Shown here piece by piece: positions 1 through 16,080 of a stretch of DNA of 51,691 nucleotides; positions within the stretch are counted from its first letter, which is position 1, and each line of letters starts with the position of its first letter. The notes beneath the pieces are model-generated. The model worked only from the letters and a program-made list of their open reading frames with translations, had not been told where the DNA came from and did no database searches. The stretch lies in sequence record OZ346160.1; one strand, given 5' to 3'. The translations under genes were made by a program, and so were the position numbers. Origin of the DNA: a phage.

Positions 1-1569
1 ATGATCATATGGGAAGATTTGACGGCGGCGCAAAAGCGAGCCATTAAAGAAATCAGTGAGCATTCATTCGAAAAGATGATCAGAATCTGGTTCCAATTAT
101 TGCAGGGGCAGAAATTCCAGAGCAACTGGCATTTTAGCTTATTGTGCAGTGAGGTAGAGAAGATCATCAATGGAGAGTCGCAGAATGTGATTTTCAACAT
201 TACGCCAGGTAGCGGCAAGACTGAGATTTTCTCGATCCACATGTCACCCTACGCGTCATTGAAAAGCCGGAAAGTGAGAAACCTTAACCTTTCGTTTAGT
301 GATGGCCTTGTCCAGCAAAACAGCAACCGGATAAAGGAGATTATCGGTTCTCCTGAGTGGCAAGAGCTATGGCCTGGAAAACTGGCAAAGGCGAGCGCTA
401 AAGATCTGATAGTCACCGAAGGCGGCAAGGTTAAATTGCAAGTTAACTCACGTTCTATTGGCGGCCAGGTAACAGGTTTGCGTGGCGGCTATATGGATGA
501 TGGTTTTACTGGTATGCTGGTTCTTGACGATCCAGACAAGCCGGATGATATGCTTTCTAAGGTCAAGCGCGAGGCTATTCACATGCGGTTAAAAAACACA
601 GTGCGATCGCGTCGAATGAAAGACACCACGCCAATTGTTATGGTGCAACAGCGACTACACGTTAATGATTCCACCTGGTTCATGCTTAATGGCGGGATGG
701 GTGGTATTGAGTTTAAAGTCGTGAGCATTCCGGCGCTGGTTACGAAAGAATACCGCGAAACGCTTCCTGATTGGTTGAAGCCTGAATTTGATCGTGATGT
801 GCTGTCAAGTAAGCCAGTGATGATAGATGGCGTCGCTCATTATTCATTTTGGCCTGCGAAGGAAAGCGCGGAGGAGTTGCTTGCATTGCGCAATGCAGAT
901 CCTTACACGTTTGCCAGTCAATACCAACAGCAACCAATCGCGCTTGGCGGGAACGTGTTTAAAACAGAGTGGTTCCAGTATTACGGCAGCGGCGAAAAGT
1001 GCGCACTACCAAAACCGGATCGCTTTGAATACACATTTATTACTGGAGATACCGCGCAGAAGGCCGGAGAGCTTAACGACTATTCAGTTTTTTGTTATTG
1101 GGGGATGTATAAGAATCGCGTTTACTTCATTGATGGCATTCGCGGAAAGTGGGAAGCGCCGGATCTTGAATTAAATTTTATTGCCTTCGTTAACCAGTGC
1201 TGGAAGCGCAATAAGGAGTGTGGCAGCTTGCGACGTATCCACATTGAGGATAAGGCCAGCGGCACTGGTTTGATTCAGGGGGCCAAAAAGAAGATCCCGA
1301 TTGATATAAATCCCGTTCAGCGAAGCAATGACAAGGTAACGCGAGCAATGGACGCCGCGCCAGTGATGAGGGCCGGACGTGTGGCGCTGCCAGAAAATCA
1401 CCCCATGCTGCCTGAGATACTGGCAGAGGTTGCAGCATTCACTTTTGATGATTCTCATCCCCATGATGATATTGTCGATAATATAGTTGATGCTGTTAAC
1501 GTCGAAATGAACTTGGCAGATGATCCGGTGGCAAGGATGAAAAAGCTGGCTGGTCTACGCAATAAATAG
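1..1569 (+). CDS. terL: terminase large subunit
   Basis: 522-aa ORF beginning at base 1, directly upstream of portal gene; size and position fit a packaging ATPase/nuclease; family call from recall, no search. Confidence 0.75.
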   Translation: MIIWEDLTAAQKRAIKEISEHSFEKMIRIWFQLLQGQKFQSNWHFSLLCSEVEKIINGESQNVIFNITPGSGKTEIFSIHMSPYASLKSRKVRNLNLSFSDGLVQQNSNRIKEIIGSPEWQELWPGKLAKASAKDLIVTEGGKVKLQVNSRSIGGQVTGLRGGYMDDGFTGMLVLDDPDKPDDMLSKVKREAIHMRLKNTVRSRRMKDTTPIVMVQQRLHVNDSTWFMLNGGMGGIEFKVVSIPALVTKEYRETLPDWLKPEFDRDVLSSKPVMIDGVAHYSFWPAKESAEELLALRNADPYTFASQYQQQPIALGGNVFKTEWFQYYGSGEKCALPKPDRFEYTFITGDTAQKAGELNDYSVFCYWGMYKNRVYFIDGIRGKWEAPDLELNFIAFVNQCWKRNKECGSLRRIHIEDKASGTGLIQGAKKKIPIDINPVQRSNDKVTRAMDAAPVMRAGRVALPENHPMLPEILAEVAAFTFDDSHPHDDIVDNIVDAVNVEMNLADDPVARMKKLAGLRNK

Positions 1570-1595
1570 CACTAATTGCTAAAAAGTTATATAAT
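1565..1595 (+). promoter_or_regulatory. conserved intergenic cassette copy (variant AATAGCACTAATTGCTAAAAAG + TATAAT)
   Basis: Motif overlaps terL stop TAG; TATAAT at 1590..1595; followed by hairpin and T-run. Confidence 0.5.
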
Positions 1596-1596
1596 C

Positions 1597-1625
1597 AAGG
1601 CTGGATTTTTCCAGCCTTTTTTATT
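1597..1625 (+). terminator. rho-independent terminator/attenuator between terL and portal
   Basis: AAGGCTGG-attttt-CCAGCCTT followed by T-run. Confidence 0.55.
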
Positions 1626-1639
1626 ATGGAGATTTGACG

Positions 1640-2932
1640 ATGAGTGAAAAAACAAGGCTAGTTAAGGCCGATGGATACAACGAGATTTTCAAGGGCAGCA
1701 AGGGCAATGGGCGTGTGGAGTTGCCTTTCTTTATGCAAGGGTTCGAATACACCACGCACGCTGATTTTTACATTCGCGACGGCCTAGCAAAACGAATCAT
1801 CGACGTTGTTCCAGAAGAAATGGTGACGCCTGGATTTAATATTGACGGCGTGGAAGACGAGGAAAGTTTTAGATCTTTGTGGGATGAGAAGCGACTAAAC
1901 GATAAAATCATTGATGCGCTTTGCTGGTCGCGTCTTTTTGGTGGCGCTGCAATCGTGGCAATCGTTCAGGATGGCAGGGCATTAAAGTCACCTGTAGCGC
2001 CTGGTGCAATCCTTGAAGATGTTCGCGTTTACGATCGCTTTCAGGTTCGCGTAGAAAAGCGAGAAACCAATCCGCGCAAGGTGCGATATGGTGAGCCATT
2101 GATTTACACCATTACACCTGGTGCTGACCTGCCAGAATACCAGGTTCACTATTCGCGAGTCTGTATTATCGACGGTGAGCGGCTACCAAATCAGCGACGT
2201 CAGTCAAATGATGGTTGGGGTGAGTCGATCCTGAATAAGCGACTTGTTGAGGCCATTTGTGATTATAACTACTGCGAAAACTTAGCAACTCAATTGTTGC
2301 GACGTAAGCAACAGGCGGTATGGAAAGCTAAAGGTCTTGCTGATCTTTGTGATGATGATGATGGTGTTAACGCCGCACGTTTGCGCCTTGCTCAAGTTGA
2401 TGATGAGGGTGGAGTTGGCCGTGCGATCGGCATTGATGCGGAAGATGAGGAATATGATGTTTTAAATTCTGATATTTCCGGCGTCGATTCATTTCTGGAA
2501 AAGAAGATGGATCGCATTGTATCTCTTTCCGGTATCCATGAAATCATCCTCAAAAACAAGAACGTTGGCGGTGTTAGCGCGAGCCAAAACACGGCGCTTG
2601 AAACCTTCTACAAGCTGATCGACAGAAAGCGAAAGGAAGAATACAAACCAATCCTTGAATTTCTGATCCCGTTCCTGATTCAAGAACAAGAATGGAGTAT
2701 TCAGTTTGCGCCGTTAAGCGTTCCAAGCGAAAAGGACCAGGCCGAGATCTTGAACAAGAATATTGATTCTTTGAGCAAGGCTATTGACGGTCAATTCATG
2801 GATACAGAGGAGGCGCGCGACACATTGCGAGCCATTGCGCCTAACGTTAAACTAAAAGACGGCAATAACATTAAATTACCTGAGCAGGACGTAGAGCCGG
2901 AGCCAGGAGCAACCGAGGGTAGCAATCAATGA
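1640..2932 (+). CDS. portal protein
   Basis: 430-aa ORF after terL; GGAG RBS about 8 nt upstream of ATG at 1640 (track start 1634 is a TTG); stop overlaps next start (ATGA). Confidence 0.75.
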   Translation: MSEKTRLVKADGYNEIFKGSKGNGRVELPFFMQGFEYTTHADFYIRDGLAKRIIDVVPEEMVTPGFNIDGVEDEESFRSLWDEKRLNDKIIDALCWSRLFGGAAIVAIVQDGRALKSPVAPGAILEDVRVYDRFQVRVEKRETNPRKVRYGEPLIYTITPGADLPEYQVHYSRVCIIDGERLPNQRRQSNDGWGESILNKRLVEAICDYNYCENLATQLLRRKQQAVWKAKGLADLCDDDDGVNAARLRLAQVDDEGGVGRAIGIDAEDEEYDVLNSDISGVDSFLEKKMDRIVSLSGIHEIILKNKNVGGVSASQNTALETFYKLIDRKRKEEYKPILEFLIPFLIQEQEWSIQFAPLSVPSEKDQAEILNKNIDSLSKAIDGQFMDTEEARDTLRAIAPNVKLKDGNNIKLPEQDVEPEPGATEGSNQ

Positions 2933-3684
2933 TAGTGAAAGGCGTCGTTAAACAATGGCGCTTTCCTGAAGCAAGCGAGCGGCAATTGCGCCGCTCAATT
3001 CAGGAGGCGATAAGGGATCTTGTTGTGCTGATGCGCAGCAAAACAAAGGAAATGAAATTTGACGCGGACACCGAAGAAATCAACGCCGCAGAGGATGAGA
3101 TTAGTAGCTTCGCGTTAAAGCTAATAGCTGGCATCGCCGCATCACTTCCGGCTATCGGCCTTGCTGTTTATAAATTCAACGCAAAGCAATTTATTAACGT
3201 AGCGAAATCAACGGGAGGTAAGTCAAATTCCGCTGTTATCATTCTTATGGCTATTGGGGCCAATGCGAATGAGAGTTGGTATAGGACGCTATACGGTCAA
3301 TGGCATGACATGACGATCGCATCTCTTCAAAAGCTATTTGGAAACATCGTGTCTGACTGGTCAACCAATATTAGATCGGCAAACTTTCGCGGAATGAGAG
3401 ATAGTCAGGTTAATGAATTGGCTGGTAAGAGATTTGCAGTGTATAGCTCTTGGGGTAAGACAAGGGCTGAAAATATCATAGGCGCTTGGAATAGTAGACT
3501 CATGCGCCAGCGTCTTTATGATGCAAAAGTAACTCATTATTTTTGGCATGGTATGCTTGATGACAGAGAACGATTGCAGCATGTACAATGGGAGGGTAAG
3601 CGCATTGCGCTAGATTCTGAACATGATTTTCCTGGTGAGCCTTTCGGTTGTCGTTGTTGGGCCATACCAGATTGGAACAGTTAA
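2929..3684 (+). CDS. minor head / head morphogenesis protein
   Basis: 251 aa, translationally coupled to portal; position between portal and scaffold. Confidence 0.5.
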   Translation: MIVKGVVKQWRFPEASERQLRRSIQEAIRDLVVLMRSKTKEMKFDADTEEINAAEDEISSFALKLIAGIAASLPAIGLAVYKFNAKQFINVAKSTGGKSNSAVIILMAIGANANESWYRTLYGQWHDMTIASLQKLFGNIVSDWSTNIRSANFRGMRDSQVNELAGKRFAVYSSWGKTRAENIIGAWNSRLMRQRLYDAKVTHYFWHGMLDDRERLQHVQWEGKRIALDSEHDFPGEPFGCRCWAIPDWNS

Positions 3685-3694
3685 GAGGTGTTAA

Positions 3695-4810
3695 ATGAAG
3701 GCAAAACAAAGATTTGATAGCGCCAAAGTAAAGGCGCACTTTGATGATAACGGGTTTTTAGTTGATCGCCCTATCGTGGCGCGAATTGGTTTACAAGTCT
3801 ATCAGACTCCTTTCGGTGAGCGCAGAGAATTTCGTCCGGCGTCCGAAGTATTCAAGGCCGACTCGCTCGCCACCTTCGCAGGTAAGCCAGTCACGGTTGG
3901 TCACGTCACGGTAACGCCAGAAAACGCCGAAAAGGTTGTGGTTGGTTCTTGTGCTGGCGCTGGCGTGCCGAACGGGATCGGCGTAGAGGTTCCGTTAAGC
4001 ATTTACTCAAAACGAGCAATCGAAAGCGCGAAGAAGCGAGACACGGCGGAAATTTCAGTTGGTTATACATCGGTTGATATTGATAAACCAGGCTGGGGCA
4101 ATAATAAAACTGGTGAGTACGTTTTCGATGAGGATGTTAGCGAAGACTGGAAACCTGATTCTCCTGATTGGGTTAAGTTTGATGCAATCCAGACTGAAAT
4201 CAAGGTAAACCACATCGCGTTAGTTTTCCGAGGTCGAGCTGGCATTGCAAAATTAAACCTTGATAGCCAGCAAGATTTTCCGTATAGTGACGACGTTATT
4301 AACAACAAAGAGGATCAAATCATGACTGTAAAAATTAAACTGGATGGCGCTGTAGAGTTTGACGTGCCAAAAGCAGTTGCGGATCACATTGAATCACTGA
4401 AAGCTGATGCAAAAGCACAGAAAGAAAAGGCGGACGGCCTGGAAGCTGAGCGAGACGCACTGCAAACCAAAGTAGATGGCATTCAGGATCAGATTGATGC
4501 CGCAGTCAAGAAGGCCAAAGAAGATGCCGAGCAATATGCTCAATTAGTGGCAGACGCTAAAGAGTTAGGCATCAAGTGCGACGGCCTGGATGCGAAAGCA
4601 ATCAAGGTTGCATACATCAAAGAAGTTATGGGTAATGACGTTTCCGATAAAACTGATGCCTATATCGAAACAGCTTTCGACATCGCCAAAAACTCTGATA
4701 AAATGGCGGCGCAGCGTAAGAGCATTAAAGGTGACTCTTTCGCGAATGAAAAGCAGGATGACGCAGGTTCTAAGCTGAATCCTAACGCTCGTTTTGAGAA
4801 ACTGAAATAA
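3695..4810 (+). CDS. scaffolding protein (possible prohead protease-scaffold, DUF2213-like)
   Basis: 371 aa with globular N-terminal half and charged coiled-coil C-terminal half (KADAKAQKEKADGLEAERDALQTK); GAGGTG RBS; precedes decoration and capsid genes. Confidence 0.5.
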   Translation: MKAKQRFDSAKVKAHFDDNGFLVDRPIVARIGLQVYQTPFGERREFRPASEVFKADSLATFAGKPVTVGHVTVTPENAEKVVVGSCAGAGVPNGIGVEVPLSIYSKRAIESAKKRDTAEISVGYTSVDIDKPGWGNNKTGEYVFDEDVSEDWKPDSPDWVKFDAIQTEIKVNHIALVFRGRAGIAKLNLDSQQDFPYSDDVINNKEDQIMTVKIKLDGAVEFDVPKAVADHIESLKADAKAQKEKADGLEAERDALQTKVDGIQDQIDAAVKKAKEDAEQYAQLVADAKELGIKCDGLDAKAIKVAYIKEVMGNDVSDKTDAYIETAFDIAKNSDKMAAQRKSIKGDSFANEKQDDAGSKLNPNARFEKLK

Positions 4811-4822
4811 GGAGTAATTAAA

Positions 4823-5302
4823 ATGGCTAAAATTGGAGCAAGTTATTTTGACACTATGGCGATCGCACTACCTGGCATGGTTGCTGACACTTCTAAATAC
4901 AACATTGACGGCGCTTGCGTCGTTAGTGAAGGTGGAGAAATTCTTGTTGGTACTGCCGTGCAGGTTGTCGCAGTGCAAGCGGTTGAAGGTCATAAACTTA
5001 TTAAGCGCATGGAAACAGGAAAATATCCTTACGGTGTGGCAATTCGTTCTCACTGGCAAACTGTTAACTCTCAAGGACAGATGGTTTATGAAGAAGGAAG
5101 CGCAATCAACGTAATGACATCTGGCAGAGTTTGGATTCTTTCAAAGTCCAGCGCAGCACCAGTCTTCGGCACTGCGGTTAAACTTGATGTTGATGGTCAT
5201 GAAAAATCAGACGGCACAATCACTACTAACTGGACCTACGCTGGCGGATTTGTCAAATATAAAGATATTAATCTTGTAGAAGTTCAGTTGCAGCAACTGT
5301 AA
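4823..5302 (+). CDS. head decoration-like protein (DUF2190-like)
   Basis: 159 aa; paralogous to N-terminal 150 aa of next ORF (shared YNIDGACV, SHGRVW, AGGFVK motifs); AGGAG RBS; followed by terminator. Confidence 0.5.
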   Translation: MAKIGASYFDTMAIALPGMVADTSKYNIDGACVVSEGGEILVGTAVQVVAVQAVEGHKLIKRMETGKYPYGVAIRSHWQTVNSQGQMVYEEGSAINVMTSGRVWILSKSSAAPVFGTAVKLDVDGHEKSDGTITTNWTYAGGFVKYKDINLVEVQLQQL

Positions 5303-5317
5303 TTAGAGTTTAATATT

Positions 5318-5349
5318 GGGGCCATCCTTTTGGATGGTCCTTTTTTTTA
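5318..5349 (+). terminator. rho-independent terminator
   Basis: GGCCATCC-tttt-GGATGGTCC followed by T9. Confidence 0.6.
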
Positions 5350-5362
5350 TGGAGAAATTATT

Positions 5363-6376
5363 ATGGCTTATGAAAATTTAATGCTGAACTATGCATGTCC
5401 TGGCAATCTCTCTGATACTTCAACCTATAACATTGATGGCGCTTGTGTTGCTCAAGGTGATATTGAGTTTGGATCAGCGGTTCGGGTTGTCGGAATAGTG
5501 GATGGAATGAGGGTTGTGACGGCGCTTTCTGATGGTGAAACTCCTTACGGCATCGCTTTTCGTTCACAATATGAGCACCTGAGCGGTAAAATTCTCGACG
5601 GAGAGGTGTGTAACGTCGTTTCTCACGGTCGGGTGTGGGCGCTTACTTCTCTTAGTGAAGCCCCGAAATCATTCTCAAAACTAAAAATCGGTGTTGGAGG
5701 AGTAGTAACTGGCGTAGATGATTATGTTGGCTGGACCTTTGCTGGTGGCTTTGTTAAGCACGAAGACGGTCACATTATTGAGGTTCAGGTGAAGCAAAAT
5801 GCTCTCATCGTTCCACCCCCTCCGCCTCCTGTGGTGCTGGTAGAGTCTGCAACAATTAACACTGACAAGGAGAGTCCGCAGCCAAACAATGCTCCCGTAA
5901 AATGCAGTATCACAGTAGAGCCTGGCAACGCCACCGATAAAACTGGTGTTTGGTCTGTTGATGCTGTAAACATTGCGACTATTGATGCCGATACCGGTAT
6001 TCTAACTCCTGTTGGTGGTGATGCATTCGGTAGTGTAAACGTAAGTTGGACGGCTAACGATGCAAGCAAGACTAAGGCCACGATTGTTTATCAATTCGAA
6101 AAAGCTGTTGTTAGCGTCGCTAGTGCAACCGTAAGCCTTGAGAAAAATTCTGCAATTGTTGGTGAAACCGTTCAGGCGAGCGTTGTCGTTGCTCCAGAAG
6201 ATGCTACCAATAAATCCGGTTCTTGGTCTTTGTCAAGTGGTGATTTTGCATCTGTAGATCCTGGTACTGGACTAGTAACTACTATCGCCGCTGGCGAGGT
6301 TGATGTTATCTGGACCGCTGCTGATGGTTCTGGCGTTAAAGGTCAGCAAAGACTAACCATTACCGATCCTGAATAA
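5363..6376 (+). CDS. head decoration-like protein with poly-Pro linker and two Ig-like (Big_2-type) C-terminal domains
   Basis: Start taken at MAYENL (GGAG RBS 9 nt upstream); N-terminal domain paralogous to 4823..5302; PPPPPP linker; two similar repeats of about 90 aa rich in T/S/V. Confidence 0.5.
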   Translation: MAYENLMLNYACPGNLSDTSTYNIDGACVAQGDIEFGSAVRVVGIVDGMRVVTALSDGETPYGIAFRSQYEHLSGKILDGEVCNVVSHGRVWALTSLSEAPKSFSKLKIGVGGVVTGVDDYVGWTFAGGFVKHEDGHIIEVQVKQNALIVPPPPPPVVLVESATINTDKESPQPNNAPVKCSITVEPGNATDKTGVWSVDAVNIATIDADTGILTPVGGDAFGSVNVSWTANDASKTKATIVYQFEKAVVSVASATVSLEKNSAIVGETVQASVVVAPEDATNKSGSWSLSSGDFASVDPGTGLVTTIAAGEVDVIWTAADGSGVKGQQRLTITDPE

Positions 6377-6395
6377 CATAAAAACGCTTTGACGC

Positions 6396-6414
6396 TTTAA
6401 CAAAAAGTGCTATC
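6396..6414 (+). promoter_or_regulatory. conserved motif, inverted orientation, embedded in sigma70-like promoter upstream of major capsid gene
   Basis: TTTAACAAAAAGTGCTAT lies between TTGACG (6388..6393) and TATCAT (6410..6415), 16-nt spacer. Confidence 0.45.
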
Positions 6415-6457
6415 ATCTAGGCCGTTACATTTAACGGCCTTTTATGGAGGAAACAAA

Positions 6458-7429
6458 ATGGCTAAAAAATACGATGAATTAGATGCTACTATTGTAGCAA
6501 ATCATTTGCAGATTCAGGGTGTTAAGTCCGACGCTTCTGATATGGGTATTTGGACCGCTCAAGAGCTACACAAGATCCGCTCTAACGCATACGAGAAAGA
6601 GTATCCGGCAGGTTCCGCGCTTCGCGTATTCCCTGTAACAAACGAGCTTTCTGATACTGACAAGACTTTCGAATATCAGACTTTTGATAAGGTTGGCTAC
6701 GCGAAAATTATCGCCGACTACACCGATGATCTGCCAACTGTGGACGCGCTGATGACTTCTGAGTTTGGCAAAGTGTTCCGCCTGGGTAACGCTTATCTGA
6801 TCTCCATTGATGAGATTAAAGCAGGTCAGCGAACTGGCAAGAGCCTGTCAACTCGCAAGGCTAACGCTGCGCAAAATGCGCATGATCAGATGATTAACTT
6901 CCTGGTGTTCAAAGGTTCCAAGCCTCATAAGATCGTTTCCGTTTTCGATCATCCTAACCTTACGAAAATTGCATCCAAAGGCTGGATGAGCAATGACGGC
7001 AATACCAAGTTCCCACAGGTAGCAAGCGATGAACTGGAGGCTGCAATCGAAACGATCGAGGAAGTGACCAAAGGCCAGCACCGCGCGACCAACATCCTGA
7101 TCCCGCCGTCCATGCGTAAAGTCCTAACGGTTCGAATGGAAAATACCACTGAAAGTTATCTTGAATACTTTCAGAAGCAAAACGGCGGTATCACTATCGA
7201 CTCTATCGCAGAGCTTGAGGATATTGACGGCAAAGGTACGAAAGGTTGCTTGGTTTACGAAAAAGATCCAATGAACATGAGCATTGAGATTCCAGAAGCG
7301 TTTAACATGCTTCCGGCGCAGCCAAAAGACCTGCATTTCAAGGTTCCTTGCACTTCCAAGTGTACTGGCCTTACGATTTATCGTCCGTTTACGATGGTGC
7401 TTATTACTGGCTTGAAAAAAGCTGAGTAA
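6458..7429 (+). CDS. major capsid protein
   Basis: 323 aa from MAKKYDELD with GGAGG RBS; follows scaffold and decoration genes; strong terminator downstream. Confidence 0.7.
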   Translation: MAKKYDELDATIVANHLQIQGVKSDASDMGIWTAQELHKIRSNAYEKEYPAGSALRVFPVTNELSDTDKTFEYQTFDKVGYAKIIADYTDDLPTVDALMTSEFGKVFRLGNAYLISIDEIKAGQRTGKSLSTRKANAAQNAHDQMINFLVFKGSKPHKIVSVFDHPNLTKIASKGWMSNDGNTKFPQVASDELEAAIETIEEVTKGQHRATNILIPPSMRKVLTVRMENTTESYLEYFQKQNGGITIDSIAELEDIDGKGTKGCLVYEKDPMNMSIEIPEAFNMLPAQPKDLHFKVPCTSKCTGLTIYRPFTMVLITGLKKAE

Positions 7430-7440
7430 TTAGATAACAT

Positions 7441-7468
7441 GGGGAGCCTTAAGGGTTCCCCTTTTTTA
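7441..7468 (+). terminator. rho-independent terminator after major capsid gene
   Basis: GGGGAGCC-ttaa-GGGTTCCCC followed by TTTTTTA. Confidence 0.6.
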
Positions 7469-7485
7469 TTTATGGAGTACACAAA

Positions 7486-7752
7486 ATGAGCAAAAATTTA
7501 AAACTTAAAGTAACTGGCGTTTGCATGATTATTATGGACGGTAAGCGTTATCATCCTGGTGATGAAATTGAAATTGAATCTGAACGCATTAATGATTCCG
7601 CAGTTGAATACCTGATCGCTCGCGGTGATGTGGAAGTTAAAGACAATTCCGAAATTAACGAGCAAATCAAGGCGAAAGCGGAGAAGAAGCGCAAAAAAGA
7701 TCCTACCGAGGGTAAGAGCCGCAAAGAGCTAGAGGACGGCGGCGAATATTAA
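7486..7752 (+). CDS. hypothetical protein (head module)
   Basis: 88-aa ORF with GGAG RBS; lysine-rich C-terminus. Confidence 0.45.
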
Positions 7753-7798
7753 TAATTGGGGCGCTTATGCGCCCTTTGTCACATCTGGAGAAAACAAA

Positions 7799-8218
7799 AT
7801 GGTAGATGAATTTTACACAGACGCTGAAATCATGCAGCAAATCGTAAAGTTAGCGCCGCCAATGCAACAAGTTGATCCCGATTTAATTGTGGCATGGATT
7901 GAGCTTGCTAAAGAGTTTGTTTGCAAAAAGCGGTTTAAAAACTCATACCCGAAAGCGGTTGCGCTTTACACTCTTCACCTTATGACCTTAGACGGGGCAA
8001 TGAAACAGGAAGGTGAAAGCGTAGAAAGCTATTCCCGCCGCGTTGCCTCGTTCACTCTGACTGGTGAGTTTAGTCAGACGTTTGATCGAATTTCTTCCGA
8101 TACAAGCGGAAAGCAGATCCGACAAACTCCGTGGGGCAAAATGTACGAAGTGTTAAACCGTAAGCACGGTGGCGGCTTTGGCCTTGTGACTGGATTGCGC
8201 CGGAGATGCTGCCGATGA
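7799..8218 (+). CDS. head-tail connector / adaptor protein (putative)
   Basis: 139 aa; position between capsid and tail genes. Confidence 0.4.
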
Positions 8219-8586
8219 ACTACAATGAGATTGCAAGAATGGCTACGGCTGGGATTAACTTTTTCAGCGACGCTAACGGTATGTTTAAGTGCATCACGCA
8301 GCAGGGAGGGGTTGAGATTATCGGAGGAGAGGAAGTTACCAAGCCGGAGATTTCAGTGATGATAAAGGGGCTTGTTAGATCTCCGAGGACTAGAGAGGTT
8401 GACGGTGAAACAATCCGAGTAACCGACAAGTTGGGGATATTCACCAATGAAACTGAGATCAAAAATGGTTATCAGATTGAAATTGATGGCGAACGTTATG
8501 TTGTCGTTGAAGCAAGACCAGTCAGGCAGACTAACATCACGGCGGCTTATCGTCCGATATTAAGGAGGATTGCTGTGCATGGCTGA
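8206..8586 (+). CDS. head closure / head-tail joining protein (putative)
   Basis: 126 aa; overlaps neighbours in coupled arrangement. Confidence 0.4.
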
Positions 8587-9022
8587 TAATTATAAGATCA
8601 GGGAATTTCACGGTGATATAAGCAGGTGGATTGATTCAGTAAGCAGCGGCCTTGTTGATTGCGTTGAAATGTTCGCGACAAACGTCCACGAGGATCTTGT
8701 AAATCGCTCGCCAGTTGATACGGGCCGATATAAAGCCAACTGGCAGATAACAGCAAACAAGCCGCCGCTATATGCGCTCAACCAATACGATCGCGATGGT
8801 AGTAAAACCATTGCAGAAGGCAAGCGAGCAATATATGCAATCATGCGTGGCGGTGGCGCGGTGCGGTCAATCTATTTTTCAAACATGCTCATTTACGCCA
8901 ACGCGCTTGAATACGGTCATTCAAAACAAGCGCCGTCCGGCGTACTTGGAATCGTGGCGGTAAAGCTGCGATCTTATATGGCTAAGGCAATAAAGGATTC
9001 GAGGGCAAAAAATGCACTATGA
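8579..9022 (+). CDS. tail component, HK97 gp10-like (putative)
   Basis: Start taken at MADNYK; size and position typical. Confidence 0.4.
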   Translation: MADNYKIREFHGDISRWIDSVSSGLVDCVEMFATNVHEDLVNRSPVDTGRYKANWQITANKPPLYALNQYDRDGSKTIAEGKRAIYAIMRGGGAVRSIYFSNMLIYANALEYGHSKQAPSGVLGIVAVKLRSYMAKAIKDSRAKNAL

Positions 9023-9413
9023 TTTAATGTTGGCGGCAAGAAAGGCGCTGGCGGCTGAATATGAATCACGATTTAAGATAGCATATGAAAACGTTGATTT
9101 TGTGCCGCCTGGAGATGGTTCTATGTGGTTAAAATTTGACTACATGGAAGCAGACACGGATCGCATATCTCTTGATAGAAAATGTGTTTCTTATATCGGT
9201 TTGGTTCAGGTTGGAATTGTCATTCCTCCTGGCGGCGGCACTGATAAAGCGCGTTTGCTGGCTAAAGAGATTGCGAGATTTTTCTATGATGGTAGAATGA
9301 TTGAAACTGGCTATATTAGCGAGGGGGCAAACGTCCACACATTACTAAAAAGTGAAACAGGTTGGTTATTGCCGATCCGTTTCAGTGTTAGGCTTGATAC
9401 AAAGGAGGAATAA
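9012..9413 (+). CDS. tail terminator / tail completion protein (putative)
   Basis: 133 aa immediately upstream of major tail protein. Confidence 0.4.
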   Translation: MHYDLMLAARKALAAEYESRFKIAYENVDFVPPGDGSMWLKFDYMEADTDRISLDRKCVSYIGLVQVGIVIPPGGGTDKARLLAKEIARFFYDGRMIETGYISEGANVHTLLKSETGWLLPIRFSVRLDTKEE

Positions 9414-9415
9414 TC

Positions 9416-10078
9416 ATGCACTTGCCTAATGGTTCTCAAATTTTCATCGGCGTTAATATGGGTGAGCCTATTCAGGCTACGGCTATTTCAAATGCTGATG
9501 ATCCTGTTTTTACGACTGCAAACACTCAAAGCATCAAAAAAGGCGCTTATGTTCTTATTGAAACATCTTCCTGGGGCAAACTTGTTAGTCGCGTGCTTCG
9601 AGTTAAGGAGGTATCAGATGATGCAAGCGTTACTCTTGAGGGTGTAAGCACGAAAGACACCAATGTTTTTCCGGCTGGTTCTAATACAGCAACTTTCCGA
9701 GAGGTGAAATCTTGGGTAGAGATTCCTTGCGTACAGGATCTTGCGCAGGACGGCGGCGAACAACAGTATTACACTTATCAGTGTTTGGCTGATGACCAGG
9801 AGCAGCAGTTACCGACCTATAAGAGCGCCGTTTCTCTTACCTACACTTTCGCGCATGAATATGATAACCCGATTTATCCGATCTTGCGCGAGGCTGAGGA
9901 ATCCGGCGACGTAACCGCTTTGCGTATGTACGTTCCGAAAGCTAAAGAGATGCGTTGCTGGGCTGGCGTATTGTCCTTTAATGACATTCCGCAAACCACT
10001 ATGAACGAAATGGAAACTGTTTCCCTTTCCGTATCTCTGAAAGGTCGATTTACGTTCTTATCTTCCGACATCAATTAA
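9416..10078 (+). CDS. major tail protein
   Basis: 220 aa; AGGAGG RBS; followed by strong terminator; precedes chaperone and tape measure genes. Confidence 0.6.
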   Translation: MHLPNGSQIFIGVNMGEPIQATAISNADDPVFTTANTQSIKKGAYVLIETSSWGKLVSRVLRVKEVSDDASVTLEGVSTKDTNVFPAGSNTATFREVKSWVEIPCVQDLAQDGGEQQYYTYQCLADDQEQQLPTYKSAVSLTYTFAHEYDNPIYPILREAEESGDVTALRMYVPKAKEMRCWAGVLSFNDIPQTTMNEMETVSLSVSLKGRFTFLSSDIN

Positions 10079-10081
10079 AAC

Positions 10082-10106
10082 AAGGGGCGTTGCGCCCCTT
10101 TTTTCA
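10082..10106 (+). terminator. rho-independent terminator after major tail gene
   Basis: AAGGGGCG-ttg-CGCCCCTT followed by T6. Confidence 0.65.
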
Positions 10107-10145
10107 TTCCTGTAAAATCAATCTATCAAATAAATCAATTCCACT

Positions 10146-10164
10146 TTTAACAAAAAGTGCTATA
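10146..10164 (+). promoter_or_regulatory. conserved motif, inverted orientation, upstream of tail chaperone/tape measure operon
   Basis: TTTTAACAAAAAGTGCTAT immediately followed by AAGGAG RBS and ATG 10178. Confidence 0.45.
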
Positions 10165-10177
10165 AGGAGATCTTGAG

Positions 10178-10495
10178 ATGGCAAAGATGAAACTAACGTT
10201 AGGCCCACTGCCTGATTTTAAGCTACCTGTTTCTTTCGTGCTTCCAAATGGTGATGAGCAAGTTATTGTTTTTACCGTGCGCCACAAGAAGGCAAGCGAG
10301 ATTCACGAACGATACACGGCAGAAAAGCCGATGAGCGACGTAGAAATGATCACCTTCCTTGCTTCCGATTGGGATCTGGAAGATGAATTTAACGAGGAAA
10401 ACGTTGCTAAATTGCTGGATTATTACCCTTCTGCGTCATTATCGCTGACTGGTCATTATATGAAAGCACTTGCGGGGCAGCGGGTAAAAAACTAA
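10178..10495 (+). CDS. tail assembly chaperone (G-like)
   Basis: 105 aa immediately upstream of tape measure gene; ends at slippery A AAA AAC. Confidence 0.65.
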   Translation: MAKMKLTLGPLPDFKLPVSFVLPNGDEQVIVFTVRHKKASEIHERYTAEKPMSDVEMITFLASDWDLEDEFNEENVAKLLDYYPSASLSLTGHYMKALAGQRVKN

Positions 10496-10812
10496 AGCGG
10501 GCGGTTTACCTGTTTTACCTCAAGCCGCCAACTGACGCACAATTAGAGGCCGTCGGCCTATCCCGTTCAGACTACGAAGGGGAGGATCCGCCGGAGGTAA
10601 TTTTTGATGAATCAATGTTTCAATCTTGGGATCTGTTTTGCGCTATGCAGACGCAATGGAGATCGACTAGCGGCAGCGTGTATGGGTTCGACTATAACGT
10701 TTTGCCTATGCTTTTTGACATTTACAAGATTGAGGATCGGGAGATGGCGCTAAATGATTTGCGCATCATGGAACAAAAGGCGCTAGAAATGATTCATTCA
10801 AACAAAACATAA
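10178..10812 (+). CDS. tail assembly chaperone frameshift product (GT-like, -1 PRF)
   Basis: -1 frame is open from the slippery heptamer A_AAA_AAC (about 10486..10492) to the stop at 10810..10812; canonical arrangement upstream of tape measure. Confidence 0.5.
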
Positions 10813-10851
10813 GCGCCGCAAGGCGCTTTTTTAATATCTGGAGGTTTTAAA

Positions 10852-13533
10852 ATGGCTGAGAAATACGCTGGCCTAACGCTAGGCGTTGACGTGTCGCAGG
10901 TCAACAATGCTGTTAAATCATTGCAGCAATTCAAGAAGGCAAACGACGACGCAAAAAAAAGCGTTAATGAATTTGTTGATTCTGAGGTTGTGGCGCGACA
11001 GCAAGCTAAACAGTTTGCCGAAGAATTGGCGCGCCAGAAAGCAGAATTTAAGAAAATCCAGGAGTCAATTGATCCCACCGCGTCAAAGATGGATAAGCTG
11101 CGAAAGGCAGCGACACAGCTTGATGCGCTATGGAAAAAGGGTATTGTTCCTGATGAGACTTTTTTTGAGCTTGGGGCAATTCTTGAGACACAGCAAAACA
11201 AGCTGATCGCAACCAAAAAAGCGATGACAGAGGAAGGCCGCGCGGCGCTTGAGGAATCAAAGAACAAAGCGCGTGCAGCGGAAGAGGCTAAAAAATTCAT
11301 CCAGGCTTTGCGTGAGCAGGAAGAAGCAGCCGGAAAAAGCAAGTCTGAATTGCTGGAAATGAAAGCGGCACAGCTTGGAGTTAGCCAGGAGGCAGCACCT
11401 TACATCGCAAGACTGAAAGAGCAGGAAAAGCAGATCCAAAAACTTGGGATTTCTACAGGCCAATACAATCAAGCAATGAAGCTATTGCCAATGCAGATCA
11501 CAGACGTGGTGACTTCACTTGCTTCTGGTATGCCTGTTTGGTTGGTAGCAATCCAGCAGGGCGGACAGATTAAGGATTCTTTTGGTGGCGCATCCAATGC
11601 TTTAAAAGCGTTGCTATCTTTCCTTAATCCGGTAAACGTGGCGTTTGGCTTGCTTTCCGGCACGCTGGCAATTGCTGCATATAATGCCTACAAAACACAG
11701 ACAGAGTTTGAGGCAATTAAAAAAACCGTTCAGGAAACAACTGGCTTGACTGGTGATTTTGCCGAAAAGATTGCTACCGGAATACAGGAGCTTTCCGACA
11801 AGACAGGCGAAAGCGCAGAAGATCTGGCAAAGGCTTACATCACCACGAAAGACGGCGCGAGCGAGGCGATTAAAAAACTGGTTGACGTTGGCATGACTTA
11901 TGATGATGCAAAAAAGAAAGTCAACGAGTACAAAGGCGCGTCTAGCTTTGTCAGCTTGAATAACGAAATTGCAAACCACAAAAACAAAGTCCTTGAGTTG
12001 GGCGACTCGTGGTATGAAGTTTTGAAAGCGAAGCGTGATTACGCTTCCCCGTCCGGCGGCCTGTTAGGTAAAGAGCTTGGCTATGTTAATCCTATGCTTA
12101 AGTTTGCACTTAACACTTATGAAGACATTGGAAAGGTCGTAAAAGATGCGAATAAGGACATGGCTGAACGAGCGGAGAGAATCGACAAAGAAAACCTTGC
12201 CTTGAACAGAGTGAGAGCAGCGCAGGAGGCTTTAAACAAAGCCATTGAGGATCAGAAGGGCGTGGCGCGTTCGGCTGATGAAGAACTGAAAAAGCGCGCG
12301 GCTGAAAACGTGGAGTTCAGGCGCAAAGAGCTTGAGGAGATCAAGAAGCAGGAGCAGAAAAAGAAAGAGGCTAAAGGCGGAATAGTTCGCGGCCCAACTG
12401 AGCAGCTTGATAAAGAGTTGTACGTTTTAAAAGCGCAACTGGAAACGCTTAAAGAGCATCGCACTGTTAACGATGTTATTTCTCGCCAGCGTAAATCTTT
12501 ATGGAGTATCGAAAAGCAGATCGAGATCCTGGAGGATGCGCAGAGCAAGCGTAAATTGACCGGAGCGGAACAGGCGCTACTAAACGAGCAAAAAGCCGTT
12601 TTGGAAATGGCAAGGCAAAAGGCTGAATTAGGGGATCAGATTGTTTTGCAGGAGCGCAAAAACAAGCTGGAGCAAGATAGCATTAAGTTTATCCGTGAAA
12701 CGCAGGCGGCTATTGATGTGCTTGGCCTTAAGCAACTTGGCTACACTGAAAAGCAGATCGAGCGTGAGCTAGAGTTACGCAAGCTGCGCACCGACTACGA
12801 GGCGCAAGGAGGAAGCGTTAGCGATGAAGTTTTTCAGCAAATGGAGGAGAAACTTAAGCTGTATTATCAGACACAGGATGAGGTTCAAGGCAACTGGTTG
12901 GCAGGAGCAAAAAACGCATGGGAGGTGTTCGCGGAAGATGCAAACAATGCCTATGGCAATGTTCAGCAGATCGCAAGCGAGGCGTTAAACGGCCTTACAA
13001 ACCAATTAGCGAATTTTATCGCTACTGGCAAGGCAAACTTTAAAGACTTCTCGACGGCTATCATCAAAATGATTATTCAGATGATCACGAAAATGGTTGT
13101 CTTTAATGCGTTATCTGGCCTGATGGGTGGTCAAACCTGGACGATGGGGAGCTTGCTTAAGAACATTGGCGGATTTGCTGGCGGTGGATACACTGGCGAC
13201 GGCGGGAAGTATGAGCCAGCCGGAATTGTCCATAAAGGTGAATTTGTCATGACGAAGGAGGCGACGCAGCGTATCGGGGTAGGCAACTTGTACCGCATGA
13301 TGCGAGGCTATGCTAACGGCGGCGTTGTTGGTAGTTCCGGCTATACTGGCGGCGGCGCTGTCACTGGTGGAACACCTCAATTTAACATTGGTGGGATTGA
13401 TGTTAGCATCAATAACGGCAGCGATCCGAAGGGCATCGAAACTGGCGTTAAGATGATCTTTACTGATATGATTAAACGTTCCTGTATGCAGGGCGGGGAG
13501 GTTTACGAATTTGTTATGAGCAAGCGAGGTTGA
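10852..13533 (+). CDS. tail tape measure protein
   Basis: 893 aa, long coiled-coil N-terminal region, Gly-rich C-terminal region; largest tail gene after chaperone. Confidence 0.85.
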   Translation: MAEKYAGLTLGVDVSQVNNAVKSLQQFKKANDDAKKSVNEFVDSEVVARQQAKQFAEELARQKAEFKKIQESIDPTASKMDKLRKAATQLDALWKKGIVPDETFFELGAILETQQNKLIATKKAMTEEGRAALEESKNKARAAEEAKKFIQALREQEEAAGKSKSELLEMKAAQLGVSQEAAPYIARLKEQEKQIQKLGISTGQYNQAMKLLPMQITDVVTSLASGMPVWLVAIQQGGQIKDSFGGASNALKALLSFLNPVNVAFGLLSGTLAIAAYNAYKTQTEFEAIKKTVQETTGLTGDFAEKIATGIQELSDKTGESAEDLAKAYITTKDGASEAIKKLVDVGMTYDDAKKKVNEYKGASSFVSLNNEIANHKNKVLELGDSWYEVLKAKRDYASPSGGLLGKELGYVNPMLKFALNTYEDIGKVVKDANKDMAERAERIDKENLALNRVRAAQEALNKAIEDQKGVARSADEELKKRAAENVEFRRKELEEIKKQEQKKKEAKGGIVRGPTEQLDKELYVLKAQLETLKEHRTVNDVISRQRKSLWSIEKQIEILEDAQSKRKLTGAEQALLNEQKAVLEMARQKAELGDQIVLQERKNKLEQDSIKFIRETQAAIDVLGLKQLGYTEKQIERELELRKLRTDYEAQGGSVSDEVFQQMEEKLKLYYQTQDEVQGNWLAGAKNAWEVFAEDANNAYGNVQQIASEALNGLTNQLANFIATGKANFKDFSTAIIKMIIQMITKMVVFNALSGLMGGQTWTMGSLLKNIGGFAGGGYTGDGGKYEPAGIVHKGEFVMTKEATQRIGVGNLYRMMRGYANGGVVGSSGYTGGGAVTGGTPQFNIGGIDVSINNGSDPKGIETGVKMIFTDMIKRSCMQGGEVYEFVMSKRG

Positions 13534-13535
13534 TA

Positions 13536-13886
13536 ATGAAGCTGGATCAGTTTAAGTGGTGTACGCAGGTTCAGAACGGCGGCGGGTCCATGACGTCATC
13601 AAATAACGATCGAGAGATTGCATTCGGTAACGGATACACACAGGTAGCATCTGGAGGCTTTAACACAATCCGGCGAGAGTTTAGCATTGTTTACGCTGGG
13701 CTTGATTACAGAGATGTTGTCAAGTTCCTGAATGAGCACAGGCTAAAACCTTTCTTGTGGATCATGCCAGATGGAAGCCCTGGATTGTTTAGGGTGAAAA
13801 GCGGTAGCGTCGGGCTTACCCCATTGTCGCCAACCGTTCAGGAAGTAAAAGCCACTTTTACGGAACAATTTACATCAATGCAGTAA
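13536..13886 (+). CDS. distal tail protein (lambda M-like)
   Basis: About 116 aa immediately after tape measure; GAGG RBS; terminator follows. Confidence 0.55.
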   Translation: MKLDQFKWCTQVQNGGGSMTSSNNDREIAFGNGYTQVASGGFNTIRREFSIVYAGLDYRDVVKFLNEHRLKPFLWIMPDGSPGLFRVKSGSVGLTPLSPTVQEVKATFTEQFTSMQ

Positions 13887-13890
13887 TTTT

Positions 13891-13917
13891 AAAGCCGCCT
13901 TTGTGCGGCTTTTTTCT
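13891..13917 (+). terminator. rho-independent terminator
   Basis: AAGCCGC-ctttgt-GCGGCTT followed by TTTTTCTT. Confidence 0.55.
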
Positions 13918-13949
13918 TGATGTTACAATGAGCAAAAAGGAGGTAGAAA

Positions 13950-16063: not shown

Positions 16064-16080
16064 TAATTAAGGAGGTGATC

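What the first reader, a model, noticed from the sequence alone, without database searches (positions are those of the whole stretch)
6388..6415. The same motif occurs inverted at three late structural genes, inside sigma70-like promoter spacers
Upstream of the major capsid gene (6396..6414), the tail chaperone/tape measure operon (10146..10164) and the tail fibre gene (about 26612..26632, - strand gene) the motif is in the opposite orientation relative to the gene and abuts the RBS. At 6388..6415 it fills the 16-nt spacer of TTGACG...TATCAT. One DNA element used upstream of -10 at early genes and inside the promoter at late genes would fit a single regulator that activates one class and represses or times the other.
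Basis: inference. Interest (0 to 1): 0.65.

Follow-up and report, generated by a model that had tools for sequence, protein, structure and literature searches.

The report
Host-type marboxes on T1-like phage promoters
The repeated 20-base motif of this T1-like coliphage has the sequence and promoter geometry of the binding site of the E. coli stress regulators MarA/SoxS/Rob: it sits where these proteins activate at early promoters and where they block RNA polymerase at the capsid and tail promoters, which gives a testable answer to a stated open question about these phages.

Summary
The window is a complete T1-like coliphage genome (Drexlerviridae, Warwickvirus). The three inverted motif copies exist where stated, within 1-2 nt. 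Only the capsid copy lies in a sigma70 spacer (TTGACG-16-TATCAT, 6389..6416).

The motif ATAGCACTTTTTGTTAAAAC matches the E. coli MarA/SoxS/Rob site (marbox). Published marbox patterns applied blind give 23 exact hits against 1.6 expected.

About 17 early units have box + 17-18 bp + -10 and no -35. That is the geometry of the class II micF promoter, fetched and measured here.

At late promoters the box overlaps the core or the first transcribed bases:
- capsid: in the spacer, in the same register as the MarA-repressed rob promoter;
- side tail fibre: +3..+22 after an extended -10;
- tape-measure chaperone: part of a complete backward-facing class II unit over the sense -10 (TAnnnT at 18 bp in 28 of 28 relatives);
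- also gene J, the portal gene and the HTH gene.

These placements are conserved across several Drexlerviridae subfamilies. No MarA homologue is encoded.

Best reading: one marbox-binding protein, probably host Rob/MarA/SoxS, activates early promoters and restrains late ones. Binding is untested. The repeat was already catalogued in phage TLS, with its function called an open question.

The parts
6389..6416 (+). Capsid-gene promoter: -35 TTGACG (6389..6394), 16-nt spacer, TG at 6408..6409, -10 TATCAT (6411..6416)
   Evidence: 10 of 12 plus TG, the best match in the region. TTGnnn-16-TATnnT is kept in all 75 unique Drexlerviridae upstream regions.
6394..6413 (-). Reverse marbox ATAGCACTTTTTGTTAAAGC. 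It fills the spacer, and its first three bases are the complement of the first three bases of the -10.
   Evidence: The register is the same as in the E. coli rob promoter. 62 of 75 unique relatives keep it, with the non-contact triplet varying.
6419..6440 (+). 9-bp hairpin plus TTTT, starting 3 nt after the -10. The capsid ribosome-binding site and ATG (6458) follow.
   Evidence: -13.5 kcal/mol, z = -3.75. A hairpin is present at this position in most relatives, with different sequences.
10082..10100 (.). Terminator of the major tail gene, terminator-like on both strands
10113..10118 (+). Probable sense -10 (TAAAAT) of the tape-measure chaperone operon, just after the terminator
   Evidence: the same element sits at the same distance from the terminator in relatives with and without the box.
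10120..10125 (-). Antisense -10 TAGATT, exactly 18 bp beyond the box
   Evidence: TAnnnT at this position in 28 of 28 unique box-bearing relatives, with 10 different hexamers.
10144..10163 (-). Marbox ATAGCACTTTTTGTTAAAAG. It is reverse relative to the chaperone gene (ATG 10178) and abuts the ribosome-binding site AAGGAG. It lies at about +20..+39 of the sense promoter and is the activator site of the backward-facing class II unit.
26642..26650 (-). Extended -10 promoter TGcTATTAT of the side tail fibre gene, after the primase terminator (26687..26670)
   Evidence: TGnTAnnAT is conserved in the window, T1, Rtp and L147.
26614..26633 (+). Marbox ATAGCACTTTTTGCTAATGA. It is reverse relative to the tail fibre gene (ATG 26596), lies 8 nt after the -10 (about +3..+22) and abuts the ribosome-binding site.
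16613..16632 (+). Forward marbox ACAGCACAAAGGGTTAAAAG, 14 nt after a TATAAT (16593..16598) and 2 nt before the ATG of tail gene J (16635)
   Evidence: Conserved in T1, TLS and many relatives.
1566..1585 (+). Forward marbox ATAGCACTAATTGCTAAAAA, 4 nt upstream of TATAAT (1590..1595) of the portal-gene promoter. The hairpin 1597..1617 follows.
28176..28195 (+). Marbox ATAGCATTTTTTGTTAAAAC with two roles. It is the class II box for the helicase promoter (-10 TATTAT at 28214..28219), and it lies in the leader of the divergent HTH gene, abutting that gene's ribosome-binding site (ATG 28164).
43547..43590 (+). Example of an early unit: box ATAGCACTTTTTGTTAAAAC, 18 bp, then TGgCATAAT. Equivalent units start at 30665, 31736, 44010, 45003, 46428, 47746 and 49040 on the + strand. 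On the - strand they start at 21384, 34996, 37158, 37832, 40031, 40528, 41833 and 42220.

Best explanation
The motif is a marbox, the asymmetric 20-bp site bound by monomeric two-HTH activators of the MarA/SoxS/Rob (RamA) family. The phage encodes no such protein, so the likeliest reader is the host's own Rob, MarA or SoxS.

At about 17 early promoters the box is forward and ends 17-18 bp upstream of a -10 that has no -35. This is the class II arrangement, in which the bound protein replaces the -35 contact and recruits RNA polymerase.

At the promoters of the capsid, tape-measure chaperone, J, side tail fibre, portal and HTH-primase units the same box sits between about -36 and +39. There a bound protein, or an RNA polymerase recruited to a backward-facing unit, competes with polymerase at otherwise strong -10-type sigma70 promoters. 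The three sites of the finding use three variants:
- capsid: occupancy of the spacer, as at the rob promoter;
- tail fibre: an operator over the transcription start;
- tape-measure chaperone: a complete class II unit that points backwards and overlaps the sense -10.

The net effect is that one factor turns early genes up and holds late structural genes down until it becomes limiting. It could become limiting through titration by about 24 boxes per replicating genome, through decay of unstable MarA/SoxS, or through a phage product.

Shown here: the sequence match, the geometry and the conservation. Inferred: which protein binds, the sign of the effect at late promoters, and the switch.
For: (1) Two marbox definitions applied without tuning pick out the phage repeats. 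The published pattern GCAnnWWnTGnnAAA gives 23 exact hits against 1.63 expected. AYnGCACnnWnnRYYAAAYn, a consensus written from memory of Martin et al. 1999, gives 22 hits at up to 1 mismatch against 1.18 expected.

(2) The E. coli micF promoter, fetched here, reads ACAGCACTGAATGTCAAAAC, then 18 bp, then TAGAAT. The phage early units have the same box-to-(-10) distance and orientation and share 15 of 20 box bases. RamA binds micF at about -41 through CACT-7N-AAA, and the phage box has exactly that.

(3) The rob promoter reads ...CAGCAAAAAATGCTATTAT. The phage capsid promoters read ...AACAAAAAGTGCTATCAT, or ...ATGCTATCAT in relatives, so the box has the same orientation and the same overlap with the -10. 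rob is repressed by MarA by steric hindrance. Its predicted boxes are centred at -9 and -18. In pbpG a marbox in the spacer gives repression by MarA/SoxS/Rob.

(4) Information content across five genera is high at GCA(C), TTG and AAA. It is low at positions 8-10 and 14, which are the unspecified marbox positions.

(5) Conservation of the late sites:
- capsid: 62 of 75 unique regions keep the box, down to about 56% capsid identity, while the inner triplet changes;
- tail fibre: the box is kept in the window, T1, Rtp and a locus with 46% primase identity;
- tape-measure chaperone: 28 of 28 keep an antisense TAnnnT, against 1 of 62 at the capsid site;
- J and portal sites.

(6) No MarA/SoxS/Rob homologue is found in the window, T1 or Rtp. 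The query sequences were written from memory.
Against: No binding, footprint, transcription-start or expression data exist for any T1-like phage in the literature that could be searched.

The phage boxes are far more uniform than host marboxes. That could instead reflect a dedicated phage protein or gene conversion between copies.

T1-like phages grow well on unstressed laboratory K-12, where MarA and SoxS are low and Rob is largely inactive (own knowledge). The factor may therefore be dispensable or only modulatory.

The terS promoter has no box. The late boxes are lost in Webervirus, the TLS group and Rtp at several sites, so they cannot be the only late control.

A marbox at -16..-30 activates a sigma28 promoter, so the sign of the effect at the capsid promoter is not settled.

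The position of the rob -10 is my reading of the sequence. The primary paper was not available.
Confidence: 0.5

Rival explanations
1. A phage-encoded protein reads the motif, and the likeness to the marbox is convergence or mimicry. Candidates are the conserved Cro-type HTH protein (27688..28164) or one of the many small early proteins of unknown function. The logic of activation and repression would be the same, but self-contained in the phage.
For: The boxes are nearly identical to one another, unlike host sites. The HTH gene is conserved in all Drexlerviridae examined, and a box abuts its ribosome-binding site, which suggests autoregulation. The phages grow on unstressed hosts (own knowledge).
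Against: The HTH protein has one Cro-like HTH. Such proteins bind as dimers to symmetric sites, whereas the motif has two unlike half-sites 7 bp apart, as expected for a two-HTH monomer. No AraC-family protein is encoded. The match covers not only the sequence but also the 18-bp class II spacing of micF and the register of rob. A coincidence would have to reproduce all three.
Confidence: 0.25
2. At the late promoters the box acts positively. Either the bound protein distorts the DNA next to the -10 and helps opening, or the motif simply supplies useful promoter sequence (GTGCTAT gives TGn plus the start of a -10).
For: MarA bound at -16..-30 activates flgB P2 by distorting base pairing. At the capsid promoter the box supplies the TG of an extended -10.
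Against: The flgB case is a sigma28 promoter that opens poorly. The phage late promoters have near-consensus -10 elements. Sigma70 promoters with a box in the spacer (rob, pbpG) are repressed. The tail fibre and J boxes lie downstream of the start, and the chaperone box drives a competing backward unit. These positions are not known to activate.
Confidence: 0.12
3. The late copies are inert relics. The early promoter cassette is mobile, comparable to the promoter-stem-loop cassettes of T4-type phages, and pieces of it were left at late genes by recombination.
For: Complete forward units accompany inserted genes inside the late region: an HNH-like ORF at 16020 in the window, and rtp20, rtp34 and rtp40 in Rtp. 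Several lineages have lost individual late boxes.
Against: Position and register are kept across subfamilies while non-contact bases vary. The antisense -10 at the chaperone site is kept in 28 of 28 relatives with 10 different hexamers. Six of the seven non-early promoters examined carry a box within -36..+39.
Confidence: 0.08
4. The motif next to the ribosome-binding site works in the mRNA, as a translational operator.
For: At 10164, 26612, 16632 and 28176 the box touches or overlaps the Shine-Dalgarno sequence.
Against: The box is reverse at three of these sites and forward at J, so the RNAs would differ. At the capsid and portal promoters it lies upstream of the predicted start. Conservation follows the DNA marbox pattern.
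Confidence: 0.05

Closest known systems
Class II MarA/SoxS/Rob (RamA) promoters of E. coli, archetype micF
   Same: 20-bp asymmetric box with GCAC and AAA elements. It is forward, ends 18 bp before the -10 and replaces the -35.
   Different: About 17 near-identical copies in a 52-kb virulent phage genome. Many have a TGn extended -10, a conserved CATCGAAACGAA leader, and a box that starts on the stop codon of the preceding gene. Binding is untested.
MarA/SoxS/Rob-repressed promoters rob and pbpG
   Same: The box overlaps the core promoter. At rob it is reverse and overlaps the -10 by three bases, exactly as at the phage capsid promoter.
   Different: The phage uses at least three placements: in the spacer, over the start, and as a competing backward unit. 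It applies them to structural-gene operons.
21-nt direct repeats of phage TLS (also noted in T1, Rtp and Rogue1)
   Same: The same element, aaATAGCACnnnTTGnTAAAA. 18 intergenic copies lie about 76 nt upstream of start codons. The table lists the copies before the capsid gene (DR7, negative strand) and before J (DR8).
   Different: The authors describe all copies as lying in the direction of transcription. They suggest stoperators, enhancer sites or UP elements, and list the function as an open question. Neither the marbox match nor the overlap with late promoters is mentioned.
Stoperators of mycobacteriophage L5
   Same: Many copies of an asymmetric site spread through the genome, some inside transcribed leaders, where a bound protein could hinder polymerase.
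   Different: Stoperators are read by the phage's own immunity repressor in a temperate phage and act only negatively. Here most copies are at activating positions and no repressor is known.
Promoter-early stem-loop (PeSL) cassettes of T4-type phages (own knowledge)
   Same: A repeated early-promoter module flanks small, variable early genes and travels with inserted genes.
   Different: The sequence and the factor differ. PeSLs are not known to double as operators at late promoters.

Membership tests
[quoted passage not shown] | Match to the degenerate asymmetric consensus: GCAnnWWnTGnnAAA, or AYnGCACnnWnnRYYAAAYn | tested here: met
   23 exact hits against 1.63 expected, and 22 hits at up to 1 mismatch against 1.18 expected. 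The information profile follows the specified positions. The boxes are 13-14 of 15 identical to the mar box CCACGTTTTGCTAAA.
[quoted passage not shown] | Bound by MarA, SoxS or Rob | not testable with these tools
   Needs EMSA, footprinting or ChIP.
Class II mar/sox/rob promoter | Forward box overlapping the -35 position, centred near -41, 18-19 bp from the -10 | tested here: met
   About 17 units have a gap of 18 bp (two have 17) to a TAnnnT or CATAAT hexamer. micF measured here has an 18-bp gap. The centre range is -36..-55 by the published definition and about -41 for micF.
Class II mar/sox/rob promoter | Transcription stimulated by the activator | not testable with these tools
   No expression data for T1-like phages were found.
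Marbox-repressed promoter (rob / pbpG type) | Box overlapping the -35/-10 spacer or core promoter | tested here: met
   The capsid box fills the 16-nt spacer in the same register as rob. The portal box ends 4 bp before the -10. The tail fibre box lies at +3..+22. The chaperone box lies outside the core, at +20..+39, but drives an overlapping backward unit.
Marbox-repressed promoter (rob / pbpG type) | Transcription reduced by MarA/SoxS/Rob | not testable with these tools
   -
UP element (alpha-CTD site) | A/T-only sequence at -40..-60 with no specific G/C positions; works only upstream of the core promoter | tested here: not met
   Invariant GCAC and G13. The box spans about -50..-31. Conserved copies lie in spacers and leaders.
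Phage-encoded MarA-like activator system | An AraC/XylS-family two-HTH protein encoded by the phage | tested here: not met
   tblastn and a profile search of all six-frame ORFs of the window, T1 and Rtp gave nothing better than E = 0.1. The annotated regulator is Cro-type.
L5-type stoperator | Sites read by the phage immunity repressor, one orientation relative to transcription, purely negative | tested here: not met
   The annotation lists no immunity repressor or integrase, and T1-like phages are virulent (own knowledge). Both orientations occur at late sites. Most copies are at an activating position.

The most novel reading that the evidence does not exclude
T1-like virulent phages have wired their temporal programme onto the host's Mar/Sox/Rob stress regulators. 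Rob/MarA/SoxS would switch on about 17 early promoters and hold down the capsid, tail and portal promoters, until the roughly 24 boxes on each replicating genome, or the decay of the unstable activators, release them. Phage development would then respond to salicylate, bile salts, redox stress and antibiotic-induced Mar states. Replicating phage DNA would in turn act as a sponge that disarms the host's multidrug-resistance response.
Probability: 0.35. Interest if true: 0.85.

Novelty: new variant of a known kind. Interest (0 to 1): 0.74.

Why it matters
T1 is one of the seven classic T phages, yet how it times its genes is unknown. It has no RNA polymerase, sigma factor or known late activator. 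The authors of the 2024 TLS re-annotation list the function of this repeat as an unanswered question.

Reading the repeat as a marbox turns that question into a few days of standard experiments with existing strains and proteins: a rob marA soxS mutant, purified MarA/Rob, and salicylate or paraquat induction.

If it holds, it would be, as far as I could find, the first case of a virulent phage whose early/late switch depends on a host stress regulon that also controls antibiotic tolerance. That is relevant to phage-antibiotic combinations, to phage behaviour in the bile-rich gut, and to Drexlerviridae that use the mar-regulated TolC as receptor. It would also give a compact set of natural promoters that respond in opposite ways to one small monomeric factor.

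Tried and rejected
- UP element: rejected, because of the invariant G/C positions and the conserved copies in spacers and leaders.
- The flanking hexamers TATAAG (10160) and TATTTA (26612, - strand) as -10 elements with the motif as spacer: rejected. They lack the final T, have no conserved -35, and would start transcription inside or after the Shine-Dalgarno sequence. Conserved -10 elements lie upstream.
- A backward class II unit at the capsid and tail fibre sites: rejected. TAnnnT at 18 bp occurs in 1 of 62 capsid regions, and there is none at the tail fibre site in the window or T1.
- A phage MarA homologue: none found.
- Scanning IMG/VR for the exact box to find unrelated phages that use it: the scan returned almost only Drexlerviridae-sized contigs plus single hits compatible with chance, so it was uninformative.
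- Transcriptome papers on Drexlerviridae: none useful was found. The one hit concerned a T5-like phage.
- The primary paper on rob repression (McMurry and Levy 2010) is not held. Secondary citations and the sequence itself were used instead.
- My first look at the region upstream of J used a wrong start codon. It was redone with the ATG at 16635.

Full report
**What the window is.** The 51,691 bases are a complete T1-like coliphage genome. It runs from the large terminase gene to the small terminase gene and is 99% identical over the tested 6 kb to Escherichia phage NorthRox (Drexlerviridae, Tempevirinae, Warwickvirus). Structural genes occupy about 1..21,000 on the + strand. The side tail fibre, primase and an HTH gene lie at 24,386..28,164 on the - strand. 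The rest is replication genes, lysis genes and many small early genes.

**Check of the observation.** AACAAAAAGTGCTAT occurs exactly at 6399..6413 (+) and 10149..10163 (+), and with one mismatch at 26614..26628 (-). The whole family gives 24 matches at up to 3 mismatches against 3.1 expected.

In these three copies the motif is inverted relative to the gene that follows. In the roughly 17 early copies it reads ATAGCACTTTTTGTTAAAAC in the direction of the gene.

The promoter TTGACG-16-TATCAT exists, with TG before the -10. It is the best sigma70 match in 6200..10300 and lies at 6389..6416, one base to the right of the stated coordinates.

The motif abuts the ribosome-binding site at the chaperone and tail fibre genes. 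At the capsid gene it does not, because a 9-bp hairpin (6419..6440, -13.5 kcal/mol) intervenes. So the copies are real, but "inside promoter spacers" holds for one site only.

**What was already known.** A 2024 re-annotation of phage TLS describes a 21-nt direct repeat, aaATAGCACnnnTTGnTAAAA. It has 18 intergenic copies about 76 nt upstream of start codons, and the authors say it is also present in T1, Rtp and Rogue1. They suggest stoperators, enhancer sites or UP elements. [quoted passage not shown]

Their supplementary table includes the negative-strand copy before the capsid gene (DR7) and the copy before J (DR8). The text nevertheless says that the repeats lie in the direction of transcription. 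No other paper in the searchable library contains the motif. None links marboxes to T1-like phages.

**Anatomy of the early unit.** Read in gene direction, each unit has these parts in order:
- the stop codon of the preceding gene, often inside the box;
- the 20-mer ATAGCACTTTTTGTTAAAAC, with GAA in place of TTT in some copies;
- 18 bp (17 in two cases), often a GC-rich inverted repeat;
- a -10 (TATATT, TATAGT, TACATT or CATAAT), frequently preceded by TGn;
- about 7 nt;
- a conserved CATCGAAACGAA leader, then the ribosome-binding site and ATG.

There is no -35 hexamer at the usual distance.

**Identity of the motif.** The 20-mer fits the E. coli marbox, the site of MarA, SoxS and Rob.
- The pattern used by the Grainger laboratory, GCAnnWWnTGnnAAA, gives 23 exact matches in the window against 1.63 expected. 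These are the phage repeats.
- The classical consensus AYnGCACnnWnnRYYAAAYn, which I wrote from memory of Martin et al. 1999 (a paper cited), gives 22 matches at up to 1 mismatch against 1.18 expected.
- Across five genera (the window, T1, TLS, Rtp and Klebsiella phage VAC8), instances were anchored only on TAGCA plus a downstream -10. They show high information at T11-T12-G13, T15 and A16-A18, and low information at positions 8-10 and 14, the positions the marbox leaves free.
- The mar operon's own box, CCACGTTTTGCTAAA (reverse complement of the entry), differs by one base from a VAC8 copy, GCACGTTTTGCTAAA.

**Geometry test for the early units.** I fetched the E. coli micF promoter, the class II archetype, for which a RamA-RNA polymerase cryo-EM structure exists. 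It reads ACAGCACTGAATGTCAAAAC, then 18 bp, then TAGAAT, with the micF 5' end 8 nt further on.

This is the same orientation and the same 18-bp gap as in the phage units, and 15 of 20 box bases are identical. The structural paper places RamA at about -41 and reads the site as CACT-7N-AAA. The phage box is CACT-TTTTGTT-AAA. The fumC promoter shows the same layout directly after the fumA terminator. Published definitions call a forward box centred at -36..-55 class II, and the phage boxes are centred near -40.5.

**Geometry at the capsid promoter.** The E. coli rob promoter, fetched here, reads TGAATGCTAAAACAGCAAAAAATGCTATTATcc. The window reads TTGACGCTTTAACAAAAAGTGCTATCAT. Relatives read ...AAAAAATGCTATCAT and T1 reads ...AAAAAGTGCTATTAT.

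In both rob and the phage the box is reverse, and its first three bases (ATA) are the complement of the first three bases of the -10.

rob is repressed by MarA through steric hindrance (cited). Its predicted boxes are centred at -9 and -18. At pbpG a marbox in the spacer gives repression by MarA, SoxS and Rob.

One counter-example exists. At the sigma28 promoter flgB P2, a box at -16..-30 activates by distorting the DNA.

**The other two sites of the finding.** Upstream of the side tail fibre gene the order is: primase terminator (26687..26670), an extended -10 TGcTATTAT (26650..26642), 8 nt, the reverse box (26633..26614), the ribosome-binding site, and the ATG at 26596. The box therefore covers about +3..+22. 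The same order is found in T1 (TGaTAAAAT), Rtp (TGcTACAAT) and a locus with only 46% primase identity (TGaTAGAAT). The inner triplet of the box differs among these.

Upstream of the tape-measure chaperone gene the order is: terminator (10082..10100), a -10-like TAAAAT (10113..10118), 25 nt, the reverse box (10144..10163), AAGGAG, and the ATG at 10178. Read backwards, this box is followed after exactly 18 bp by TAGATT (10125..10120).

All 28 unique box-bearing relatives have TAnnnT at that position, with ten different hexamers. At the capsid site the figure is 1 of 62. So the chaperone site is a complete class II unit that points away from the gene. Its -10 lies one base from the sense -10, and it runs into a terminator that is terminator-like on both strands. 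Recruiting polymerase there would exclude polymerase from the sense promoter.

Relatives without the box have the terminator followed directly by TGTGTAATAT or TGTGCATAAT. This supports the sense -10 as the real late promoter.

**More sites of the same kind.**
- Gene J (true ATG at 16635) has TATAAT (16593..16598), 14 nt, then a forward box ACAGCACAAAGGGTTAAAAG that ends 2 nt before the ATG. This is conserved in T1, TLS and many others. In some lineages it is a perfect box followed by a separate Shine-Dalgarno sequence.
- The portal gene has a forward box (1566..1585) 4 nt before TATAAT. This is conserved in relatives down to about 69% portal identity but is absent from T1 and TLS.
- The box at 28176 is the class II box of the helicase promoter, and it also lies in the leader of the divergent HTH gene.

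Of the seven non-early promoters I could identify, six carry a box between about -36 and +39. Only terS has none. What separates the two classes is position, not orientation.

**Conservation of the capsid site.** All 75 unique capsid upstream regions keep TTGnnn-16-TATnnT. 62 of them keep the box, down to about 56% capsid protein identity. The box is decayed in Webervirus and absent in Rtp, which has TTGCGT-16-TATAAT.

**Who reads the motif.** Neither the window nor T1 nor Rtp encodes a MarA/SoxS/Rob relative. The best profile E-value was 0.1, and the query sequences were written from memory.

The conserved phage regulator (27688..28164) has a single Cro-type HTH. Such proteins bind symmetric sites as dimers, whereas the motif has two unlike half-sites in adjacent major grooves. 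The protein from 32318..33433 gives only sub-threshold matches: Sigma70_r4_2, HTH_28 and a metallophosphoesterase domain.

All known hosts of Drexlerviridae in the hit lists are Enterobacterales, which have these regulators. I therefore consider a host factor most likely, with a non-homologous phage protein as the main rival.

**How it most likely works.** A marbox-binding monomer activates the early units from the class II position. It interferes with the strong, -10-driven late promoters by one of three routes: occupying the spacer, sitting on the start, or recruiting polymerase to a competing backward unit.

How the block is lifted is not known. Three candidates are:
- titration by about 24 boxes per genome as the DNA replicates;
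- loss of the unstable MarA/SoxS once host transcription stops;
- a phage product.

The sequence match, geometry and conservation are shown here. The protein, the sign of the effect and the switch are inferred.

**Verdict.** The element itself was already catalogued. New here are its identification as a marbox, the class II geometry of the early units, and the conserved overlap with late promoters.

Noticed in passing
window 1590..1620 and 6411..6444; relatives: At the portal and capsid genes the -10 is followed after 1-5 nt by a GC-rich hairpin and a T-run. The predicted transcription start therefore falls inside the 5' arm of a terminator-like hairpin. Read-through from upstream would terminate there, while transcripts started at this promoter would lack the full stem. 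The layout recurs in most of the Drexlerviridae examined, with the hairpin sequence differing between lineages.
   Followed up: partly
window, about 7-20 nt after the -10 of early units, for example 34925..34938 (-) and 43598..43610 (+): A conserved C/A-rich leader, CATCGAAACGAA(A/C), begins at the predicted transcription start of most early units and of some late ones in relatives. Its function is unknown; it may be a translation or stability element.
   Followed up: no
window 43567..43584, 31756..31773, 47766..47783, 37795..37812: In about half of the early units the 18-bp gap between box and -10 is a GC-rich inverted repeat. With the TTTT of the box on the opposite strand it resembles a terminator for antisense transcription. 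The other units have no such repeat.
   Followed up: no
window 16020..16557: An extra ORF sits between tail genes I and J. It starts MWRDIFYYNDGKLFWAVDV and looks HNH-endonuclease-like by eye, but it was not searched against any family library. It has its own complete forward box/-10 unit and is absent from NorthRox. Rtp has forward units in front of its inserted HNH genes rtp20 and rtp40 and of rtp34. The promoter cassette seems to travel with inserted genes.
   Followed up: partly
window 28213..28220: The -10 of the helicase promoter (TATTAT, + strand) and a TATAAT on the - strand for the HTH-primase unit overlap with an offset of one base. This is the symmetric arrangement described for bidirectional bacterial promoters.
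   Followed up: no
window 10075..10125, - strand: The backward unit at the chaperone site would give an RNA of about 35-40 nt that ends at the reverse side of the major tail terminator (hairpin -15.8 kcal/mol followed by UUGUUUUAA). It is not known whether this RNA has a function of its own.
   Followed up: partly
window 26782..26754, - strand: A near-consensus sigma70 promoter (TTGACA-17-GATAAT, 11 of 12) lies inside the 3' end of the primase gene, upstream of the terminator at 26687..26670.
   Followed up: no
L003 (TLS) 15024..15042 and supplementary table S1 of PMC11447400: The TLS paper lists the copy before the capsid gene as DR7 on the negative strand, while its text states that all repeats lie in the direction of transcription. 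The inversion was recorded but not discussed.
   Followed up: yes
L005 (Klebsiella phage VAC8) and Webervirus loci L075..L085: Webervirus keeps 15 or more early boxes. Its capsid-promoter spacer holds only a decayed box (TATCACGAATCGTTAAGC), and the chaperone and J sites have none. Late-promoter boxes have been lost repeatedly in different lineages.
   Followed up: partly
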